64,000 bases of DNA from Geobacter sp. (GTDB taxonomy: Bacteria > Desulfobacterota > Desulfuromonadia > Geobacterales > Geobacteraceae). Below are positions 58,331 through 64,000 of the stretch, piece after piece. The DNA lies in the NCBI GenBank assembly GCA_003314535.1, contig POSG01000012.1:5825-69824 (forward strand), written 5' to 3'. Numbering within the stretch: position 1 is the stretch's first letter; each line of letters begins with the position of its first letter. The notes under the pieces were generated by a model. It saw nothing but the letters and a program-made list of their open reading frames with translations, was not told the origin of the DNA and did no database searches. A program made the position numbers and the translations under genes.

Positions 58331-59527
58331 ATGAACAGCTTCCATTCCAATATCGCCAAACTCTACGCCTTCGCTTTCCTGCAGCGGACACTGTTCCCCA
58401 TGGCGATCATTACCCTGTTCTGGAAGGACCATATCGGCCTGAGCCTGTCCCAGATCATGCTTCTCCAGAGCATATTTTCCGCCGCCTCGGTCCTCCTGGA
58501 ATACCCGTCAGGTTACATAAGCGACCGCCTCGGTTACCGGACCGCCCTCACCATCGCCACCGTTCTCGGCACTGTCGGTTGGGGATTCTATACCATGGCC
58601 GACTCCTTCGCCGACGTGCTGGTTGCCGAGATACTCCTGGGAATTTCCCTCTCCTTCATCAGCGGCTCTGACAGCGCCCTCCTCTTTGAGACACTGAAGG
58701 AGGAAAAGGCGGAAGGTATCTATGCCCGCCTCGAAGGGCGCATGAACGGCTTCTCCCAGACCGGCGAAGCCTTGGGCGCCCTGTTCGCCGGCCTCATGTA
58801 CGCAGCCGCGCCCCTCTTGCCTTTTTTCCTCCAGGTAGGCGTGTGGGCACTGGCGTTTTCCGTGGTCCGCACCATGAAGGAGCCTCCCCGGGATACCTCC
58901 ATCCAGGCCCGTTCCCACCTGGCGGAAGCCCTCAAGGTCACCCGCTACGCCTTCCTGGAAAACCGCCGTCTCCGGGCCATCATTCTGCTCAACACCGTCC
59001 TGGGCATCGCCTCATTCTATCCGGTCTGGCTGATCCAGCCCTACATGCAGCAGCATGCCGTGCCGCTGGGCTGGTTCGGCCCTGCCTGGACCGGGGCCAA
59101 CCTGACCGTGGCGCTCTTCGCCCTGGCCAGCCACCGGGCCCACGTGACCATGGGAGACCGGAACAGCATCCTCCTCTTCTGCGCCATGATCCTGGCCGGC
59201 TATTTCGGCCTCGGGCTCATAGGCGGGACCTTCGGCTTCCTGTTCTACTACATCCTCACCGCCATGCGCGGGCTGCGCGGCCCCATATTCCTCTATTACA
59301 CCCAGGTCGAAACCCCCTCCGCCAACCGGGCCAGCATACTCTCCCTCCAGTCGCTCGCGTTCCGCCTCATGTTCATCGCAACCGGCCCCCTGGTGGGCAA
59401 ACTGGCCGACAAGGTGGGCGTGCAGGAAGCGTTTCACTACCTGCTCTACGCGTTTATGATCACCCTGCCGCCGCTTGTCTGGCTTTTCTTCAGGAATAAC
59501 CAGCGCGGCATTGAAGCTGACGCCTGA
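58331..59527 (+). CDS. MFS transporter
   Basis: About 12 predicted TM segments. GYISDRLGYR is an MFS loop motif. Confidence 0.75.
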   Translation: MNSFHSNIAKLYAFAFLQRTLFPMAIITLFWKDHIGLSLSQIMLLQSIFSAASVLLEYPSGYISDRLGYRTALTIATVLGTVGWGFYTMADSFADVLVAEILLGISLSFISGSDSALLFETLKEEKAEGIYARLEGRMNGFSQTGEALGALFAGLMYAAAPLLPFFLQVGVWALAFSVVRTMKEPPRDTSIQARSHLAEALKVTRYAFLENRRLRAIILLNTVLGIASFYPVWLIQPYMQQHAVPLGWFGPAWTGANLTVALFALASHRAHVTMGDRNSILLFCAMILAGYFGLGLIGGTFGFLFYYILTAMRGLRGPIFLYYTQVETPSANRASILSLQSLAFRLMFIATGPLVGKLADKVGVQEAFHYLLYAFMITLPPLVWLFFRNNQRGIEADA

Positions 59528-59601
59528 GCATCCGCTTTCCGTCTCATCACGGGAACAGAAACGTGCGACAGCATAACTTTCCCGGGATCAGAAGGAATCA
59601 C

Positions 59602-59768
59602 ATTAGAAACATTGACAGGCATCTTTACAATACGGTAATAAAACCTGACTCATGGTGATTCATGAACAGGTATTCCGGAGGGATGCGGTGATGTGCGCCA
59701 CGGTAGTATTCGGTTTCAAATAGGGCCGCTTTGTCAGCAATTGGCTGATTGAGCGGCCCTTCTTTGTG
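59602..59768 (+). ncRNA. Candidate small transcription unit, copy 2 (paralog of 48114-48281); sRNA or 23-aa micro-ORF
   Basis: Same promoter-like block (TTGACA 59612, TACAAT 59626) and a conserved 5' transcript. The 9-bp-plus terminator stem AGGGCCGCT/AGCGGCCCT is followed by TCTTTGT. Confidence 0.45.
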
Positions 59769-59797
59769 GGCACGGGACCGCCTTGCAAGAGGTTTCC

Positions 59798-60151
59798 ATG
59801 TTCAAGGATATGAAGGCATATGCCCACCTGAAACCCGGGCAGAAAGGGACTCTCAGGTTGGTCGAAAAGTACGGCGATTCGCTTCTTTGCGTACGATACC
59901 GTTACGATGCCAGGCGCAGGATGCGGCTGAAAACGGTGGAAATTATCGTTGAGGAAAAGGCGGGCAGCCATCGTTTCCCCTTCCGGAATGACGATATTGT
60001 TTCCGTGATGGTCCCTTATGCCGAAAAAAACCTGCGTGATCAGCTCAAAGTTGCGGGAGGCAGGTGGGACCCTGGCGCAAAGATATGGAGGGTGCGTTAC
60101 GGCTCGATTCGCACTATGGCGGAAGTGGTTGAAAGAATCGTACGGGAATGA
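59798..60151 (+). CDS. Small protein with a DUF5710-like C-terminus (mobile-element associated)
   Basis: C-terminal LKVAGGRWDPGAKIWRV resembles the A-x-G-A-x-W-D-x-x-x-K-x-W motif of DUF5710 domains from plasmid or phage primase/topoisomerase proteins. Recalled from memory, not searched. Confidence 0.45.
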   Translation: MFKDMKAYAHLKPGQKGTLRLVEKYGDSLLCVRYRYDARRRMRLKTVEIIVEEKAGSHRFPFRNDDIVSVMVPYAEKNLRDQLKVAGGRWDPGAKIWRVRYGSIRTMAEVVERIVRE

Positions 60152-60169
60152 GAGTGATGAGGCAGGAAG

Positions 60170-60283
60170 AGTTACTTATATAGGTGACTTGGGAAGCGAG
60201 AGGAAGTTACCTATATGTGAAACGTTGAAGTTCCTTATATAGGTAATAACTTACCTATATAAGTAGCAAATTACTTATATACG
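60170..60283 (+). repeat. Five direct iteron-like repeats, consensus (A)GTTAC(C/T)TATATA(G/A)G
   Basis: Copies at 60170-60184, 60205-60219, 60229-60243, 60249-60263 and 60269-60283. Start-to-start spacing is 35, 24, 20 and 20 nt. Each has a palindromic TATATA-centred core. Confidence 0.75.
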
Positions 60284-60320
60284 GAAACCTACTAACAATT
60301 TGTTATGCGAGGAAATGAGT

Positions 60321-61151
60321 ATGGAGAACGAAACAGTCAACGTGACAATCAATCTAGATGCCCTTCGGAATGAGCTACGAGTAGCACTCCAGCGAGTGAT
60401 ATATCTTGTTTCCGCCGGATTAAAAGCTGCCGAAGGAATCGACTCAGAAAATCTTCAGCTCCCCACTGTTAGCATGGCAGTAACTTACGCCTCGAATTTG
60501 AAATTTACCCCTGAAGAAATCAAGCAGCAATATACATCCTGGATACTGACGAATGGATTTAGAGATTCTATTGAATGCGTGAGCGCTTTCCTTGAGTCTG
60601 TCCACAAAGTCCTATCAATATGGAAGCTAACAGGAAAGCAAAACGAGACTGTACAAATTAAGGCAGCAGATTGGAATGCAACCTTTGTGGATGGAGTAAA
60701 GAAATTTCACCGGCTTGGCTTCCCTGACAAACTTGATCATATAAAAGACGAACATGACATTGAAATGGATGAGAAGTTTGTTGATTTATTGTTATCAATT
60801 AATACAGCTCGAAATTGTTTGGTTCACCGGCATGGCATAGTCTCAGACAGAGACATCACTGCCGATTGCAAACTAGAAGTCAAATGGACAACACTTATGT
60901 TCGTTCTGAAAAATGAGGATGGTGAAAAGGAGTTGGTCATTGGCGAGCTAGTCGAAAAAGAAAGCTGGGTTGGCGTACGCCTAGTTGGACAGGTAAAGAC
61001 GTTCGACCTGGGAGCCAAAATAGAATTTTCGACCAAAGAATTTTCAGACATCACGTGGACATCCTTTTTATTCGGTGAGGACCTTGTCACGAAAATACAC
61101 TCTTACGCTGTCAAAAGTGGCATCATTGAAGGAGCAACAGACAATGCATAA
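60321..61151 (+). CDS. Hypothetical protein with an RNxxxH (HEPN-like) motif
   Basis: AT-rich ORF. GAGGAA lies 8 nt before the ATG at 60321, and the ORF is open from TTG 60300. ARNCLVH at nt 60810-60827 fits the HEPN Rx4-6H RNase signature and follows about 165 aa that I judge helical by eye. The C-terminal ~100 aa look beta-rich by eye. Confidence 0.55.
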   Translation: MENETVNVTINLDALRNELRVALQRVIYLVSAGLKAAEGIDSENLQLPTVSMAVTYASNLKFTPEEIKQQYTSWILTNGFRDSIECVSAFLESVHKVLSIWKLTGKQNETVQIKAADWNATFVDGVKKFHRLGFPDKLDHIKDEHDIEMDEKFVDLLLSINTARNCLVHRHGIVSDRDITADCKLEVKWTTLMFVLKNEDGEKELVIGELVEKESWVGVRLVGQVKTFDLGAKIEFSTKEFSDITWTSFLFGEDLVTKIHSYAVKSGIIEGATDNA

Positions 61152-61596
61152 CAAGCGCCAAGACCGGCCAAAAACCAAGCCGGTCAGGCTTTGGGCGTTG
61201 GCAGGAAAGGAATTGAGAAAATTGATGGAAATAAATTTTCAATGCAGGTCGTGCAAAAGAGTCTTCAACTGTGATGTCGGATCAGTTGACATCGATGAGG
61301 AGACGCTTCGCCCCATTTTCCTCAACAAGATCATTTGTCCTAGCTGTGGCGAGCGGTCTTTGGACGATGTATTTCTCACTGAACTCGGCCAAAGCCAATT
61401 AACTGAGGCTACATTTGATTTTGACGGAGACAATAACGGGGATTTTTGGGGAGATACCGATGGCGATTGCAATGGTTGCGACAGTTTCCTTCCGCTGAAT
61501 GATCTCGGTCTCTGTAACGAATGCGCAGAAAAACTTGATCGAGATTTAATCAGGCAACGCGATTGGAGTTATTCTACTGCCGTTTGTCACTGGTAA
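61144..61596 (+). CDS. Double zinc-ribbon protein, overlapping the upstream gene; native 3' end replaced by IS21 insertion
   Basis: The ATG at 61144 overlaps the upstream stop (ATGCATAA). Zinc-ribbon pairs are CRSC...CPSC and CNGC...CNEC, with an acidic DFDGDNNGDFWGDTDGD linker. The last codons, TGT CAC TGG TAA, are the first nucleotides of the IS. Confidence 0.5.
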   Translation: MHNKRQDRPKTKPVRLWALAGKELRKLMEINFQCRSCKRVFNCDVGSVDIDEETLRPIFLNKIICPSCGERSLDDVFLTELGQSQLTEATFDFDGDNNGDFWGDTDGDCNGCDSFLPLNDLGLCNECAEKLDRDLIRQRDWSYSTAVCHW

Positions 61597-61681
61597 TGCA
61601 ATAATGATCCAAAAACGGTAATAAAAAGTGTACCACCCTGGGACCCTGTGGTATCCCTCTCTCAAGAAGGGAGGGATGCCG

Positions 61682-62938
61682 ATGATTTCCACGGAGGTGT
61701 ACATGGACATTCGTGCTTATAAGCGCCAAGGTCACAGTCTTCGTTGGATCGCCAGGAAACTCGGCATCCATCGCAAAACCGTCAAGAAGCACCTGGAAAG
61801 CAACTCATTTCCAGCTTACACCCGCACTACAGCCAAACCGTCGATCCTTGATCCCTATCACCAGGTCATCCGGGATTTCCTCGACGAAGACGATTACCAG
61901 GCCACCTGGATCTTCGAGCGCCTCAAGCGCATAGGGTACGCCGGCTGTTACGACACCGTCAAGGTGTTTGTCCGCTCCATCAAGGAGCAAAAATGCCGGA
62001 TCGCCTATACCCGCTTTGAGACCGAACCGGGGCTTCAGGCCCAGGTCGATTGGGGTGATTTCAAGATCACCGACAACTCAGGCAAGACCACGACGATCTA
62101 TGCCTTCGTCATGGTCCTCGGTTTCTCGCGGGCTATGTATGTCGAATTCGTCGAGCTCTGCACGATGGAGGTCTTCATGGACTGTCACCTCCGGGCATTC
62201 AGACAGCTTCGCGGCGTGCCCGCCGAGATCCTCTACGACAATATGAAGCACGTAGTCATCGGCAGAGAAGACGGTAAGCCGGCCTTCAACATGGAGTTCC
62301 TCCACTTCTCCAAGCACTACGGCTTCACGCCCCGTCTCTGCCCGCCCTACAGCCCCTGGGTCAAGGGGAAGGTGGAGCGCCCTATGGACTATCTGCGGGA
62401 AAGCTTCTGGCGAGGGTACGTATACTGCTCGCTCTCCCAGGCCAATAAGGATGTCACCACCTGGCTGGTCGAAACTGCTCACCAGCGGATTCACGGAACC
62501 TACCGGCAGCAGGTGAAGCTGCGCTGGGAGCAGGAAATCCCTCATCTGGGGCCGCTTCCGGCGAACGATTACGACACCTCCCTCAAGTTCTTCCGCAAAG
62601 TGTACAAGGATTGCCTGATCTCCTTTGGCGGCAACCGCTTCCATGTCGCTTCCCACGTGGTCGGCAAGAAGGTGCTCCTCAAGGTCAAGAACGATGTTAT
62701 CCGCATCTACCACGACGCCGAATTGCTCCGGACTTACACTATTCCGGAGGGTAAAGGGCTGGCGCTCGGAATCCCGTCACGACCATCCCGGACACCACAG
62801 GAAACCCCTCGCTACGGACGAAACAAGGGAAAGGCAACCAGGGGGCTCGTCACTCACACCCTCTATCCCGAAGTCTACCGCCGCCCCCTTGCCGAGTATG
62901 ACCGTTACGTCGCCGGAGGTGTCTCATGGAACAACTGA
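61682..62938 (+). CDS. istA: IS21-family transposase IstA
   Basis: N-terminal HTH (GHSLRWIARKLGIHRKTVKKHL) and a DDE core (QVDWGDF..., LYDNMK..., ...KGKVER). GGAGGG lies 6 nt upstream of the ATG at 61682. Confidence 0.9.
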   Translation: MISTEVYMDIRAYKRQGHSLRWIARKLGIHRKTVKKHLESNSFPAYTRTTAKPSILDPYHQVIRDFLDEDDYQATWIFERLKRIGYAGCYDTVKVFVRSIKEQKCRIAYTRFETEPGLQAQVDWGDFKITDNSGKTTTIYAFVMVLGFSRAMYVEFVELCTMEVFMDCHLRAFRQLRGVPAEILYDNMKHVVIGREDGKPAFNMEFLHFSKHYGFTPRLCPPYSPWVKGKVERPMDYLRESFWRGYVYCSLSQANKDVTTWLVETAHQRIHGTYRQQVKLRWEQEIPHLGPLPANDYDTSLKFFRKVYKDCLISFGGNRFHVASHVVGKKVLLKVKNDVIRIYHDAELLRTYTIPEGKGLALGIPSRPSRTPQETPRYGRNKGKATRGLVTHTLYPEVYRRPLAEYDRYVAGGVSWNN

Positions 62939-63705
62939 CCTTTGACCGTCTCCAGGACAATCTCAAGCGGCTGAAGCTGTTCAAGGCAGTGGAGATTCTC
63001 GACGACGTCGCAACCCTTTCACAAGCGAACGGCGGCTCCTACCTCTCCTTTCTCGACCAACTCCTGGAGGAAGAGGTGGCGGCCAAGGACAAACGCCGCG
63101 TCGATACCGCCATGAAGATTGCGGGCCTTCCCATGGCAAAGACCATCGAAGAGTATGATTTCACTTTCCATCCCCATCTGGACAAGAAGTCGGTCATGGA
63201 ACTCTTTGACCTGACGTTTCTTTCCAGACACGAAAACGTCATCTTCCTGGGGCCGCCGGGAGTCGGCAAAACCCATCTCGCCATCGCCCTGGCCATCAAG
63301 GCTTGCTACCACGGTTTCAGGGTCTATTTCACCACCATGAACACCTTGATCGCCAAGCTCAAAGAGAGCCAGGCCAAGGGCAAAGCCTATCTCAACTCCA
63401 GCCTCGTCATCGTCGATGAGGTCGGCTATCTCCCGGTCACCAGCCAGGAGGCGTATCTCTTCTTTCAGTTCGTCACCTACCGCTATGAGAAGAGCTCGAC
63501 CATCATCACTTCGAACAAGAGCTTCTCCGACTGGCAGGAGCTCTTCGGTGATCCGGTCATCGCATCGGCCATCCTGGATCGACTTCTGCACCATTGCCAG
63601 GTGATCAACATCAAGGGGCATAGCTACCGCTTGCAAGGTCATGCCTTCGCCAAACAACTCTCCCAGAAAGGAGGTGACTCTACGATCTCAGATTCCCCAG
63701 ATTGA
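62926..63705 (+). CDS. istB: IS21-family helper ATPase IstB
   Basis: Walker A GPPGVGKTHLA and Walker B LVIVDEVGY. 13-nt overlap with istA. Confidence 0.92.
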   Translation: MEQLTFDRLQDNLKRLKLFKAVEILDDVATLSQANGGSYLSFLDQLLEEEVAAKDKRRVDTAMKIAGLPMAKTIEEYDFTFHPHLDKKSVMELFDLTFLSRHENVIFLGPPGVGKTHLAIALAIKACYHGFRVYFTTMNTLIAKLKESQAKGKAYLNSSLVIVDEVGYLPVTSQEAYLFFQFVTYRYEKSSTIITSNKSFSDWQELFGDPVIASAILDRLLHHCQVINIKGHSYRLQGHAFAKQLSQKGGDSTISDSPD

Positions 63706-63843
63706 GAGATGCTCTCCCAGGAAGTGGTACACTTTTCAATTCCCGTAACTGGTACACTTTTACGTTCCCATTGACACCGTTTACGGACTCAATTCACTCC
63801 AAAGGGAAGAACTTCGAAAGAAAGTTATGGAGTACTCAACCGG

Positions 63844-64000
63844 TCAACGCAACATGTCGTGAAATTCTTCTGCTGGAGATCGATACCCCAGCGTTTTCCG
63901 TGGTCTCTGGTTTAACTGTGCTGCAATTAAATCCAATTCTGGCTGGGAAAAGCCATACAACACAGTGCCTTTCGGGAAATACTGCCGAAGAAGCCGGTTC
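63844..64000 (-). CDS. C-terminal fragment of an IS30-family transposase (continues beyond the window)
   Basis: The minus-strand translation NRLLRQYFPKGTVLYGFSQPELDLIAAQLNQRPRKTLGYRSPAEEFHDMLR* matches the conserved IS30 C-terminus (LRQYFPKG...LN.RPRK.LG). The piece is too short to appear in the ORF track. Confidence 0.75.
   Translation of the reverse strand, partial: NRLLRQYFPKGTVLYGFSQPELDLIAAQLNQRPRKTLGYRSPAEEFHDMLR

What the first reader, a model, noticed from the sequence alone, without database searches (positions are those of the whole stretch)
60321..61596. Overlapping HEPN-like / double zinc-ribbon gene pair on an AT-rich mobile island: candidate undescribed abortive-infection or toxin-antitoxin module
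- Two ORFs in strongly AT-rich DNA are translationally coupled. The ATG at 61144 lies inside the last codons of the upstream gene (ATGCATAA).
- ORF1 (about 277 aa) carries ARNCLVH at nt 60810-60827. This is an exact fit to the R-N-x-x-x-H form of the HEPN Rx4-6H ribonuclease signature. It follows about 165 residues that look helical to me and precedes a C-terminal domain that looks beta-rich.
- ORF2 has two CxxC...CxxC zinc ribbons joined by a very acidic DFDGDNNGDFWGDTDGD linker.
- HEPN RNases in defence islands typically work with a small cognate partner that acts as antitoxin or sensor. I do not recognise this particular pairing as a named system.
- The context supports a mobile, defence-like role. 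Iterons lie immediately upstream, a DUF5710-like gene comes before that, and two IS elements lie downstream.
- The module may be inactivated here, because an IS21 element has replaced the ORF2 3' end.
Basis: partly seen in the sequence, partly recalled or inferred. Interest (0 to 1): 0.75.

Follow-up and report, generated by a model that had tools for sequence, protein, structure and literature searches.

The report
Two independent integron cassettes, not a pair
The supposed toxin-antitoxin gene pair is really two unrelated mobile gene cassettes that sit side by side in a chromosomal integron-type array; the first encodes a large, unstudied protein family with a ribonuclease-like motif.

Summary
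The sequence features are real. ORF1 (60321-61151) has an RNCLVH motif. ORF2 has two zinc ribbons and an acidic linker. The DNA is AT-rich, with five upstream repeats and two IS elements downstream.

The two-gene module is not supported:
- A 58-nt attC-type recombination site (61146-61203) lies between the genes.
- The "overlapping ATG" sits inside its R'' box (GCATAAC). The ORF2 family starts at 61225.
- A 92%-identical ORF1 copy and a 98%-identical ORF2 copy each sit beside a different gene, and homology breaks at the GTT core.
- No ORF2 relative occurs near ORF1 relatives in 80 metagenome loci plus the looked-up contigs. No ORF1 relative occurs in 54 ORF2 loci.

This is the start of a chromosomal cassette array with no integrase in 64 kb. 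A conserved 117-aa gene, five palindromes and a GTT junction precede it.

ORF1 belongs to an unannotated family of about 1,700 clusters. R164 is invariant and N165/H169 nearly so. Its confident model matches no known fold, so HEPN membership is unproven. A self-contained RNase toxin or defence role is inferred, not shown.

ORF2 is a stand-alone cassette protein, cut here by IS21 (5-bp duplication) and IS30.

The parts
59798..60151 (+). 117-aa 'DUF5710-like' platform gene that precedes the cassette array
   Evidence: The family has 996+ members of constant length at 60-72% identity (alignment). In window, L156, L157, L159 and L160 it is followed by the same repeats and a junction. The Pfam DUF5710 hit is below threshold. 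The AF2 model has pLDDT 74 and no fold match.
60170..60284 (.).
   Evidence: Detected. They are conserved downstream of the 117-aa gene in four other loci with different flanking genes. They are not part of the ORF1 cassette, because L066 homology starts at 60292.
60290..60308 (+). attI-like junction TACTAACAATTTGTTATGC, with crossover between G60302 and T60303
   Evidence: Window and L156 are identical up to GTTATGCGA and then carry different first genes. L159 and L160 are identical up to cgaGTTG and then differ.
60303..61197 (+). Cassette 1 (the ORF1 cassette)
   Evidence: It starts TTATGC, and its own attC R'' box is GCATAAC, the exact complement of G+TTATGC. It is 92% identical to L066 over 60292-61216, in a different context.
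60321..61151 (+). ORF1 coding sequence, 276 aa, from an uncharacterised family
   Evidence: 52 close relatives. 1,732 clusters at E<=1e-3. AF2 model pLDDT 91. No hit in Pfam, PADLOC, NCBIfam, PHROGs or PDB. No fold match.
60810..60827 (+). R164-N-C-L-V-H169 motif, of HEPN Rx4H type
   Evidence: R164 is invariant, and N165 and H169 are conserved in at least 90% of 125 diverse relatives. In the model the motif lies at the C-terminal end of helix 151-169.
61146..61203 (+). attC site, from R'' GCATAAC through an imperfect hairpin to R' GTTGGCA. The ORF1 stop TAA lies inside R''.
   Evidence: Single-hairpin fold at -10.7 kcal/mol with AAC/GTT paired. Unconstrained ssDNA MFE is -13.2, z -2.28. The homology breakpoints of both L066 and L011 fall at GCGTTGG.
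61198..64000 (+). Cassette 2 (the ORF2 cassette), interrupted by two IS elements and running off the window
   Evidence: 98% identical to L011 from 61195 to 61585. It resumes at 63782-63828.
61225..61584 (+). ORF2 coding sequence, 5' part (double zinc ribbon with acidic linker)
   Evidence: The family's consensus start is MEINF. There are 136+ relatives, typically about 177 aa.
61585..63776 (+). IS21-family element (istA 61628-62938, istB 62926-63705), with ends TGTCA...TGACA
   Evidence: IS21 transposase E 2.7e-90 and IstB E 4.4e-81. CCGTT is duplicated at 61580-61584 and 63777-63781. Removing the IS restores the ORF2 frame.
63782..63828 (+). ORF2 coding sequence, continuation (YGLNSLQREELRKKV)
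   Evidence: It matches P0053/L011.
63829..64000 (-). End of an IS30-family element. The transposase C-terminus with its stop is encoded on the minus strand at 63844-64000.
   Evidence: NCBIfam transpos_IS30 E 3e-9, covering the last 35 profile positions. ORF2 homology stops at 63828.

Best explanation
Window 60303-64000 is the first part of a chromosomal integron-type gene-cassette array.

SHOWN
- ORF1 and ORF2 are two separate single-gene cassettes. Each was captured independently by site-specific recombination at a G|TT core.
- Cassette 1 runs from the attI-like junction (60302|60303) to the G of its attC R' box (61197). Cassette 2 starts at 61198.
- The ATGCATAA 'overlap' is the attC R'' box (GCATAAC) lying over the ORF1 stop codon.
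- The array follows a conserved platform: a 117-aa gene, five 16-bp palindromes and a GTT junction. No integron integrase lies within the 64-kb window.
- ORF2 is broken here by an IS21 and an IS30 insertion.

INFERRED
- A tyrosine integrase encoded elsewhere in the genome moves the cassettes.
- The co-oriented platform gene probably supplies read-through transcription, so ORF1, in first position, would be the best-expressed cassette.
- ORF1 is most likely a self-contained, metal-independent RNase of HEPN type. It would use R164, N165 and H169, probably across a dimer, and its beta insert would keep it inactive until a phage or stress signal arrives. This would make it a single-gene abortive-infection or toxin cassette. 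I give this step about 0.35.
- ORF2 is a stand-alone small protein with two zinc ribbons, an acidic linker, a conserved helix and a Lys/Arg-rich tail. It probably binds nucleic acid.
For: (1) Breakpoints.
- L066 matches the window only over 60292-61216. After GCGTTGG it continues into a different gene.
- L011 matches only over 61195-61585 and is preceded by a different gene and its own hairpin site.
- L156, the same chromosomal locus in a related Geobacteraceae genome, is identical up to GTTATGCGA and then has a different first gene.

(2) attC anatomy.
- The site has an R'' ending in AAC, an imperfect hairpin and an R' beginning GTT. Its length is 58 nt and the stop codon lies in R''.
- The cassette's first bases, TTATGC, are the exact complement of its own R'' box.

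(3) The same signature recurs.
- A perfect 7/7 match between R' and R'' is seen in 14 of 109 ORF1 or ORF2 loci, against 1.9% for cross-locus pairs (P = 2e-8). For ORF1 alone it is 12 of 60.
- Textbook sites such as ACCTAAC...GTTAGAC follow ORF1 relatives.
- The hairpins have z-scores of -2.3 to -5.8 in 11 of 13 sites.

(4) No synteny between the two genes.
- Neighbours of both families are unrelated to each other and mostly co-oriented.

(5) The platform is conserved next to variable arrays in three different chromosomal contexts.

(6) For the RNase inference.
- R164 is invariant, and N165 and H169 are conserved in at least 90% of 125 relatives at 25-49% identity.
- The most recurrent weak Pfam hit is DUF4145, which I recall as a HEPN-clan family (4 of 125 members).
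- hhalign places R164 and H169 on the R and H of a HEPN_Swt1 protein.
- Integron cassettes are known to carry compact defence genes, including a HEPN-like single-gene system (bioRxiv 10.1101/2024.07.02.601686, read).
Against: - No integron integrase is present in the window. None was seen within 10 kb in L156, L157 or L159, and phmmer over the ORF1 and ORF2 loci found none.
- Only one complete attC lies inside the window. The standard attC covariance model (IntegronFinder or HattCI) could not be run.
- The window attC hairpin is only modestly better than shuffles (z -2.28, 5 of 200).
- Sites in the L156 array are short or degenerate.
- For the RNase step:
  - Foldseek found no HEPN or any other match in PDB or BFVD, despite pLDDT 91.
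  - No Pfam or PADLOC family is hit.
  - The hhalign result is not significant (E 0.9).
  - No defence phenotype is known, and defence genes are not clearly enriched among neighbours.
Confidence: 0.82

Rival explanations
1. ORF1 (a HEPN toxin or effector) and ORF2 (a zinc-ribbon antitoxin or sensor) form one translationally coupled two-gene abortive-infection or toxin-antitoxin module.
For: The two genes are adjacent and co-oriented. An ATG at 61144 overlaps the ORF1 stop. HEPN toxins often have small partners (established knowledge). ORF2 gives one weak PADLOC candidate hit, PDC-M14A at E 6e-4.
Against: - 0 of 80 metagenome loci with ORF1 relatives carry an ORF2 relative, and none of the screened ORF1 contigs does either. 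0 of 54 ORF2 loci carry an ORF1 relative.
- The nearest copies of each gene have different neighbours.
- An attC site with recombination breakpoints separates them.
- The ORF2 family starts at 61225, not at 61144.
- ORF1 is intact although ORF2 is destroyed by two IS elements. That would be unexpected if ORF2 were a needed antitoxin.
Confidence: 0.04
2. ORF1 is a cassette gene but not a HEPN RNase. The conserved R/N/H/D cluster would serve another chemistry or a binding role. Examples are a nucleotide- or phosphate-binding enzyme, or a regulatory protein with a new fold.
For: - The confident model has no structural neighbour.
- No HEPN profile hit reaches significance.
- The motif sits at the C-terminal end of a helix and is followed by a 45-residue beta insert.
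- Other near-invariant residues (R81, K137, R170, D178, W189) extend beyond the HEPN signature.
- There is a local resemblance to the kinase catalytic loop, AARNCLV..G.V..D..W, at E 0.058.
Against: - The R-N-x3-H spacing and the polar residue after R fit the HEPN signature exactly and are the most conserved positions in the family.
- The kinase-like stretch lacks the HRD aspartate, and the model is not a kinase fold, since Foldseek returned no kinase.
- Weak signals point to HEPN families rather than to others.
Confidence: 0.4
3. The AT-rich segment is a remnant of a plasmid, ICE or phage replicon. The five repeats would be replication iterons bound by the DUF5710-like protein, and ORF1 and ORF2 would be ordinary island cargo.
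For: - There are five regularly spaced repeats next to a small putative DNA-binding gene.
- DUF5710 occurs fused to Rep_3 initiators in Acinetobacter plasmids (PMC11233732, read).
- The N-terminal half of the 117-aa protein occurs as a 75-aa ORF beside SSB and what its sequence suggests is a replicative helicase, on a viral contig.
Against: - No rep, par, conjugation or phage genes are nearby.
- The 117-aa gene and its repeats are chromosomal. They keep synteny with transketolase, LigD_N and MFS genes in relatives.
- They are always followed by a GTT junction and variable co-oriented genes with attC sites.
- The repeats are palindromes rather than the direct repeats expected of replication iterons (my own knowledge, not tested).
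Confidence: 0.05

Closest known systems
Integron gene cassettes in sedentary chromosomal arrays, or CALIN (clusters of attC sites lacking a nearby integrase; Cury et al. 2016, PMC4889954)
   Same: - Single promoterless genes, all co-oriented.
- Each is followed by an imperfect-hairpin site with an R'' ending in AAC and an R' beginning GTT.
- Crossover occurs at G|TT.
- The stop codon lies inside R''.
- The same cassette is found in different arrays.
- IS elements have accumulated in the array.
- No integrase is nearby, as in CALIN.
   Different: - The array begins at a conserved platform: a 117-aa gene followed by five 16-bp palindromes and a GTT junction. That platform recurs at different chromosomal sites without an adjacent intI.
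- A classical attI lies next to a divergently transcribed intI.
- I could not run the standard attC covariance model.
Cassette-borne streamlined defence genes of the Vibrio cholerae superintegron, for example the single-gene HEPN-like system 'Esos' (bioRxiv 10.1101/2024.07.02.601686)
   Same: A small stand-alone protein in an integron cassette whose only recognisable feature is HEPN-like.
   Different: No sequence comparison with Esos was possible. ORF1 has no detectable Pfam HEPN domain, and no phage phenotype is known for it.
Single-protein HEPN abortive-infection RNases (Abi_2/AbiD/AbiF, AbiJ C-terminal domain, DUF4145; listed from my own knowledge of Anantharaman et al. 2013)
   Same: An Rx4H motif with Asn after the Arg, embedded in a helical domain. 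The gene is stand-alone and sits on mobile DNA.
   Different: - No significant profile or fold match.
- A 45-residue beta insert lies between the motif helix and the last helix.
- Additional invariant residues are present (R81, K137, R170, D178).
HEPN-MNT and other two-gene HEPN toxin-antitoxin systems
   Same: Only the motif in ORF1.
   Different: There is no conserved partner gene of any kind next to ORF1 relatives. ORF2 is not a nucleotidyltransferase and does not co-occur with ORF1.
attI1 of class 1 integrons, a simple site plus the integrase-binding direct repeats DR1 and DR2 (from my own knowledge)
   Same: A GTT crossover site preceded by an L-like TAAC box a few bases upstream, with repeated elements further upstream.
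   Different: - Here the repeats are five 16-bp palindromes with a TATATA centre.
- The neighbouring gene is a 117-aa protein of unknown fold, not intI.
- Which protein binds the repeats is unknown.

Membership tests
Two-gene toxin-antitoxin or Abi module (ORF1 + ORF2) | The two genes co-occur across genomes | tested here: not met
   0 of 80 metagenome ORF1 loci carry an ORF2 relative, and none of the screened ORF1 contigs does either. 0 of 54 ORF2 loci carry an ORF1 relative. The nearest copies have other neighbours.
Two-gene toxin-antitoxin or Abi module (ORF1 + ORF2) | One operon with coupled translation | tested here: not met
   A 58-nt attC site with recombination breakpoints lies between the genes. 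The ORF2 family starts at 61225, 73 nt after the ORF1 stop.
Two-gene toxin-antitoxin or Abi module (ORF1 + ORF2) | The partner neutralises the toxicity of the effector | not testable with these tools
   This needs co-expression experiments. Indirectly, ORF1 is intact although ORF2 is disrupted twice.
HEPN superfamily RNase | A conserved Rx4-6H motif with a polar residue after the Arg | tested here: met
   R164-N165-C-L-V-H169. R164 is invariant, and N165 and H169 are conserved in at least 90% of 125 relatives.
HEPN superfamily RNase | A helical-bundle HEPN fold, recognisable by profile or structure comparison | tested here: inconclusive
HEPN superfamily RNase | Metal-independent RNA cleavage that depends on the R and H residues | not testable with these tools
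   Biochemistry is required.
Integron gene cassette | An attC site 3' of the gene: R'' ending in AAC, an imperfect hairpin, and R' beginning GTT | tested here: met
   The site spans 61146-61203. It folds as a single hairpin with AAC and GTT paired at -10.7 kcal/mol, with z -2.28. Homologous sites in L066, L011, L157 and L159 were compared.
Integron gene cassette | Cassette boundaries at G|TT, with the same cassette found in different arrays | tested here: met
   L066, L011 and L156 all break at the GTT cores.
Integron gene cassette | The cassette's first bases complement its own R'' box (signature of a circular intermediate) | tested here: met
   TTATGC against GCATAAC, 7 of 7. The same holds in 14 of 109 loci against a 1.9% null, P = 2e-8.
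Integron gene cassette | Recognised by the curated attC covariance model (IntegronFinder or HattCI) | not tested
   The model is not in Rfam. An Rfam scan of 59000-64000 found nothing. No tool here carries it.
Complete integron | An intI integron integrase adjacent to attI | tested here: not met
The gene tables list no integrase within 10 kb of the platform in L156, L157 or L159. The locus is therefore CALIN-like.
IS21 family insertion | IstA transposase plus IstB helper, terminal inverted repeats, and a target-site duplication | tested here: met
   NF033546 at E 2.7e-90 and NF038214 at E 4.4e-81. The ends are TGTCA...TGACA and CCGTT is duplicated. Excision restores the ORF2 frame.

The most novel reading that the evidence does not exclude
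Two linked novelties remain open.

(a) The platform may be a previously undescribed cassette-capture platform. It consists of the 117-aa gene, five TATATA-centred palindromes and the GTT junction. The gene family has about 1,000 members. The full platform was seen in the five loci examined, representing three distinct chromosomal contexts, always at the head of a variable cassette array and never beside an integrase. It would be an attI equivalent organised by a small accessory DNA-binding protein and served by an integrase in trans or by another recombinase.

(b) ORF1 may define a new, structurally unmatched branch of HEPN-like nucleases. These would act as single-gene defence or toxin cassettes in environmental integrons.
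Probability: 0.25. Interest if true: 0.7.

Novelty: new member of a known kind. Interest (0 to 1): 0.42.

Why it matters
- The finding should be removed from the list of candidate new two-gene defence systems. Adjacency inside a cassette array does not imply a functional link, and start/stop 'overlaps' there can be attC boxes.
- ORF1 still represents a large family of about 1,700 clusters at 50% identity. The family is unannotated and has an invariant nuclease-type motif and a confident but unmatched fold. It is carried on integron cassettes in sediment and soil bacteria, which makes it a cheap and well-defined target for toxicity and phage-defence screens.
- The integrase-less platform that heads the array, if general, bears on how clusters of attC sites without an integrase arise and are expressed.

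Tried and rejected
ORF1 family and fold searches
- Pfam, PADLOC, NCBIfam and PHROGs scans of ORF1 found nothing.
- The ORF1 profile against PDB sequences gave nothing with A1.
- With the broader A3 profile the only hits were to the BTK catalytic loop, AARNCLV..G.V..D..W, at E 0.058. I rejected a kinase reading for three reasons: the hit is not significant, the HRD aspartate is absent, and the AF2 model finds no kinase by Foldseek.
- Foldseek of the ORF1 model found nothing in PDB. The best BFVD hit was an uncharacterised siphovirus protein at E 8e-3, TM 0.43.
- A Pfam scan of 125 diverse ORF1 relatives gave only scattered weak hits.
- tblastn of ORF1 against plasmids gave one partial hit. Against phages it gave none.

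Search for a conserved partner or an integrase
- Neighbours of ORF1 and ORF2 relatives share no family. There are only sporadic IS110, RelE, PsyrT and TIR hits.
- A tyrosine recombinase near one ORF1 relative (L003/L004) is not an integron integrase. The one in L061 is Xer-like.
- IntI1 searches of the window and the loci found nothing.

Upstream region and platform gene
- I tested the upstream repeat region (60140-60320) as a long attC. No AAC...GTT hairpin was found.
- The Rfam scan and the promoter/terminator scan were uninformative.
- The AF2 model of the 117-aa protein is only moderately confident and has no fold match.
- A viral-contig scan for the 117-aa family found one partial relative.
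Full report
1. WHAT IS IN THE SEQUENCE

ORF1 runs from 60321 to 61151 (276 aa). A GAGGAAA ribosome-binding site lies 7 nt upstream of its ATG.

An ORF overlapping the ORF1 stop can be read from the ATG at 61144 to 61596. It has CxxC...CPxC and CxGC...CxxC ribbons joined by an acidic linker.

G+C falls from 59-68% in the upstream transketolase, LigD_N and MFS genes to 40-46% over 60200-61600.

Five copies of a 16-bp imperfect palindrome, AGTTACYTATATARGT, start at 60170, 60205, 60229, 60249 and 60269.

Downstream lie an IS21-family element, with IstA at E 2.7e-90 and IstB at E 4.4e-81, and the end of an IS30-family element.

2. THE TWO GENES ARE NOT A PAIR

ORF1 has 52 close relatives, all unnamed. 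ORF2 has more than 136.

I fetched 54 genome loci with ORF2 relatives, 80 metagenome loci with ORF1 relatives, and contigs carrying several individual homologues.
- No ORF2-family locus encodes an ORF1 relative.
- No ORF1-family locus among the 80 metagenome loci or the contigs screened encodes an ORF2 relative. The contigs fetched later show other genes downstream.
- Genes next to ORF1 relatives include a TIR protein, an M50B-like membrane protein and a HEPN_Swt1 protein, or nothing on the same strand.
- Genes upstream of ORF2 relatives include a dehydrogenase, an AMP-ligase, an RsgA GTPase, methyltransferases and a DUF2971 protein.
- All-against-all clustering and Pfam and PADLOC scans of 147 ORF1 neighbours found no recurrent partner.

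The nearest copies give the clearest evidence.
- L066 encodes a 94%-identical ORF1. It matches the window only over 60292-61216.
- L011 encodes a 96%-identical ORF2. It matches only over 61195-61585.
- In L066 the gene after ORF1 is different. In L011 the gene before ORF2 is a 451-aa Mrr_cat-like protein.

3. WHAT SEPARATES THEM

Between the ORF1 stop and position 61203 lies this sequence:
GCATAAC AAGCGCCAAGACCGGCC AAAAACCAA GCCGGTCAGGCTTTGGGC GTTGGCA

Its features are those of an integron attC site, as described in PMC4889954 and from my own knowledge of attC-aadA7:
- a 7-nt box ending in AAC that contains the TAA stop;
- an imperfect hairpin;
- a box beginning GTT.

It folds as a single hairpin with AAC and GTT paired at -10.7 kcal/mol. 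As free single-stranded DNA it reaches -13.2 kcal/mol, with z -2.28 against shuffles.

L066 and the window are alike through GCGTTGG and diverge immediately after. L011 becomes alike at the same GCGTTGG. This is the behaviour expected of recombination at G|TT.

The ORF1 cassette begins TTATGC at 60303. Its own 3' box is GCATAAC, the exact complement of G+TTATGC, as expected for a cassette that circularises.

I tested this signature across all loci. A perfect 7/7 match between an upstream GTTNNNN and an NNNNAAC at the stop occurs in 14 of 109 non-redundant loci, against 1.9% when flanks from different loci are paired (P = 2e-8). For the ORF1 family alone it occurs in 12 of 60 loci, and 18 of 60 have the stop inside TAAC.

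Several ORF1 relatives are followed by textbook sites, such as ACCTAAC...GTTAGAC and ACTTAAC...GTTAAGT. A crude hairpin scan found 8 of 73 such sites downstream of ORF1 relatives, against 1 of 124 in control windows inside genes. Eleven of thirteen sites fold with z between -2.3 and -5.8.

Many ORF2 relatives end ...CGCTAAC and are preceded by GTTAGCG.

The ATGCATAA 'overlap' is therefore the R'' box. In the alignment of 39 relatives nearly all start at MEINF, which is 61225 here. A protein starting at 61144 would be a chimera across a cassette boundary.

4. THE LOCUS AS A WHOLE

The gene upstream (59798-60151, 117 aa) belongs to a very conserved family. It has more than 996 hits, 76% mean column identity and constant length. 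Its DUF5710 match is below threshold.

In a related Geobacteraceae genome (L156, GCA_034933285.1) the same chromosomal synteny holds: IF-2B, GlnE, transketolase, LigD_N, MFS, then this gene. It is followed by the same palindromes and by ...GAAACCTACTAACAATTTGTTATGCGA. After that comes a different first gene and a run of small co-oriented genes (GNAT, SnoaL_2, GyrI-like, PEMT) before the core gene thiC.

In two other genomes the 117-aa gene sits at unrelated chromosomal positions. It is again followed by five palindromes, by ...TATATAC(G/T)GAAACC plus 12 nt plus GTT, and by arrays of unrelated co-oriented genes separated by attC-like hairpins. Those hairpins resemble the window's site in sequence (AACAAGCG..CAGCGG..CCGCTG..CTCTCAGCCGTT).

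L159 and L160 share the platform and diverge right after cgaGTTG.

No integron integrase is present. The gene tables show no integrase within 10 kb of the platform in L156, L157 or L159.

The locus is therefore best described as the head of a CALIN-like chromosomal cassette array with an attI-like junction at 60290-60308.

Their binding protein is unknown. The adjacent 117-aa protein is the obvious candidate, but its AF2 model is only moderately confident (pLDDT 74) and has no fold match.

5. ORF2 AND THE IS ELEMENTS

The IS21-family element spans 61585-63776, with ends TGTCA...TGACA. It is flanked by a CCGTT duplication at 61580-61584 and 63777-63781.

Removing it restores the reading frame...RDWSYSTAVYGLNSLQREELRKKV, which matches P0053.

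At 63829 an IS30-family end interrupts the gene again. ORF2 is thus inactivated by two insertions. Its conserved C-terminal helix (ELRKxVIxxYGxxLELI) and Lys/Arg-rich tail are lost or displaced.

The ORF2 family occurs in Desulfobacterota, Aminicenantes, Bacillota, Nitrospirota, Planctomycetota, Chloroflexota and archaeal MAGs at 50-65% identity. Its two halves also exist as separate small genes. Its function is unknown. No PDB or family match goes beyond generic zinc ribbons.

6. ORF1

A profile search of 1.84 billion representative proteins finds 1,732 clusters at E<=1e-3 and 396 at E<=1e-30. The 150 best-scoring hits that were listed are mostly about 275 aa, apart from some shorter fragments.

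In 125 diverse members (25-49% identity to the window protein):
- R164 is the only invariant residue;
- W74, R81, K137, N161, N165, C166, H169, R170, G172, D178 and W189 are each conserved in at least 90%.

The AF2 model is confident (pLDDT 91, pTM 0.86). It shows helices 12-37, 64-104, 115-130, 134-145 and 151-169, with the motif at the end of the last of these. A beta insert follows at 184-229, and then helix 238-265.

Nothing in PDB or BFVD resembles the model. No Pfam, PADLOC, NCBIfam, PHROGs or PDB-sequence match exists.

The only pointers to HEPN are these:
- the motif itself;
- DUF4145 as the most recurrent weak Pfam hit, in 4 of 125 members with best E 0.026. DUF4145 being a HEPN-clan family is my own knowledge;
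- an insignificant hhalign alignment that puts R164 and H169 on the R and H of a HEPN_Swt1 protein (E 0.9).

A local likeness to the kinase catalytic loop was rejected.

ORF1 relatives have no conserved neighbour, so any activity must be self-contained.

Integron cassettes are documented carriers of compact defence genes, including a single-gene HEPN-like system (bioRxiv 10.1101/2024.07.02.601686, read).

My working model is a stand-alone HEPN-like RNase whose beta insert or C-terminal helix gates its activity. This is inference, at about 0.35.

7. VERDICT

The interpretation as an overlapping two-gene module is wrong. The region is two independent integron-type cassettes at the head of a chromosomal array, and the second is wrecked by IS21 and IS30.

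Interest lies in two things. One is the large unannotated ORF1 family. The other, as a side observation, is the conserved integrase-less platform.

Noticed in passing
window 59798-60308; L156 10001-10520; L157 10001-10541; L159 10001-10513; L160 119-631: A conserved platform heads variable cassette arrays in three different chromosomal contexts. It consists of a 117-aa gene, five TATATA-centred 16-bp palindromes, and GAAACC plus 12 nt plus GTT. No integrase lies within 10 kb. It may be an undescribed attI-type platform with an accessory DNA-binding protein.
   Followed up: partly
window 59722-59760 (also L156, L159 and L160, about 40 nt before the 117-aa gene): An imperfect hairpin, GGGCCGCTTTGTCAGC..GCTGATTGAGCGGCCC, followed by a T-run is kept upstream of the 117-aa gene even where the flanking genes differ. 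It may be a terminator or the left edge of the platform unit.
   Followed up: partly
L152-L155 (last 30 nt of each contig), corresponding to window 60271/60272: Four contigs from a close relative (97% identity in the 117-aa protein) all end shortly after the fourth palindrome, with the unrelated sequence AGAGGTGGCCCCGGTTATTAGGACAGGTAG. This suggests another insertion or population-level variation at this spot.
   Followed up: no
L023, L026, L029, L031, L034 (66-aa genes); L042, L046, L059, L060 (about 100-aa genes): The two halves of the ORF2 family also occur as separate small genes in other genomes. The halves are the N-terminal ribbon with LTELGQSQLTEAT, and the C-terminal ribbon with KLDRDLIRQRDW and the basic tail. 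The family is modular.
   Followed up: partly
window 60807-60890 (ORF1 residues 163-189): The stretch AARNCLVHRxGxVxxxD...W resembles the tyrosine-kinase catalytic loop through DFG to the P+1 region (BTK, E 0.058). N165 and D178 fall on the kinase Mg-binding Asn and the DFG Asp. The HRD Asp is absent and the predicted fold is not a kinase, so this is probably chance.
   Followed up: partly
L157 13514-14458; L159 15677-16360: REP-associated tyrosine transposase (RAYT, Y1_Tnp) genes sit co-oriented inside two of the arrays that follow the 117-aa platform. In L159 the gene is flanked by short tandem and inverted repeats. This may be coincidental colonisation by a mobile element.
   Followed up: no
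L161 9998-10225: A 75-aa ORF on a 90-kb viral contig carries only the N-terminal half of the 117-aa protein (GTxRLxEKFGDxLVCVRYRYD). It lies between an SSB-like gene and what its sequence suggests is a replicative DNA helicase (identities judged by eye, not scanned).
   Followed up: no
L007-L009 (ORF1 relative P0046): One distant ORF1 relative lies between a GTPase/GAP1/caspase (EAD1) conflict-system cluster and a HEPN_Swt1 protein. Another (P0014, L001/L002) lies just upstream of a TIR protein. These are defence-like neighbourhoods, but they are not recurrent.
   Followed up: partly
window 63829-64000: A second IS (IS30 family, with its transposase on the minus strand) is inserted in the ORF2 3' region, only 52 nt after the IS21 element. 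The array head is a sink for IS elements.
   Followed up: yes
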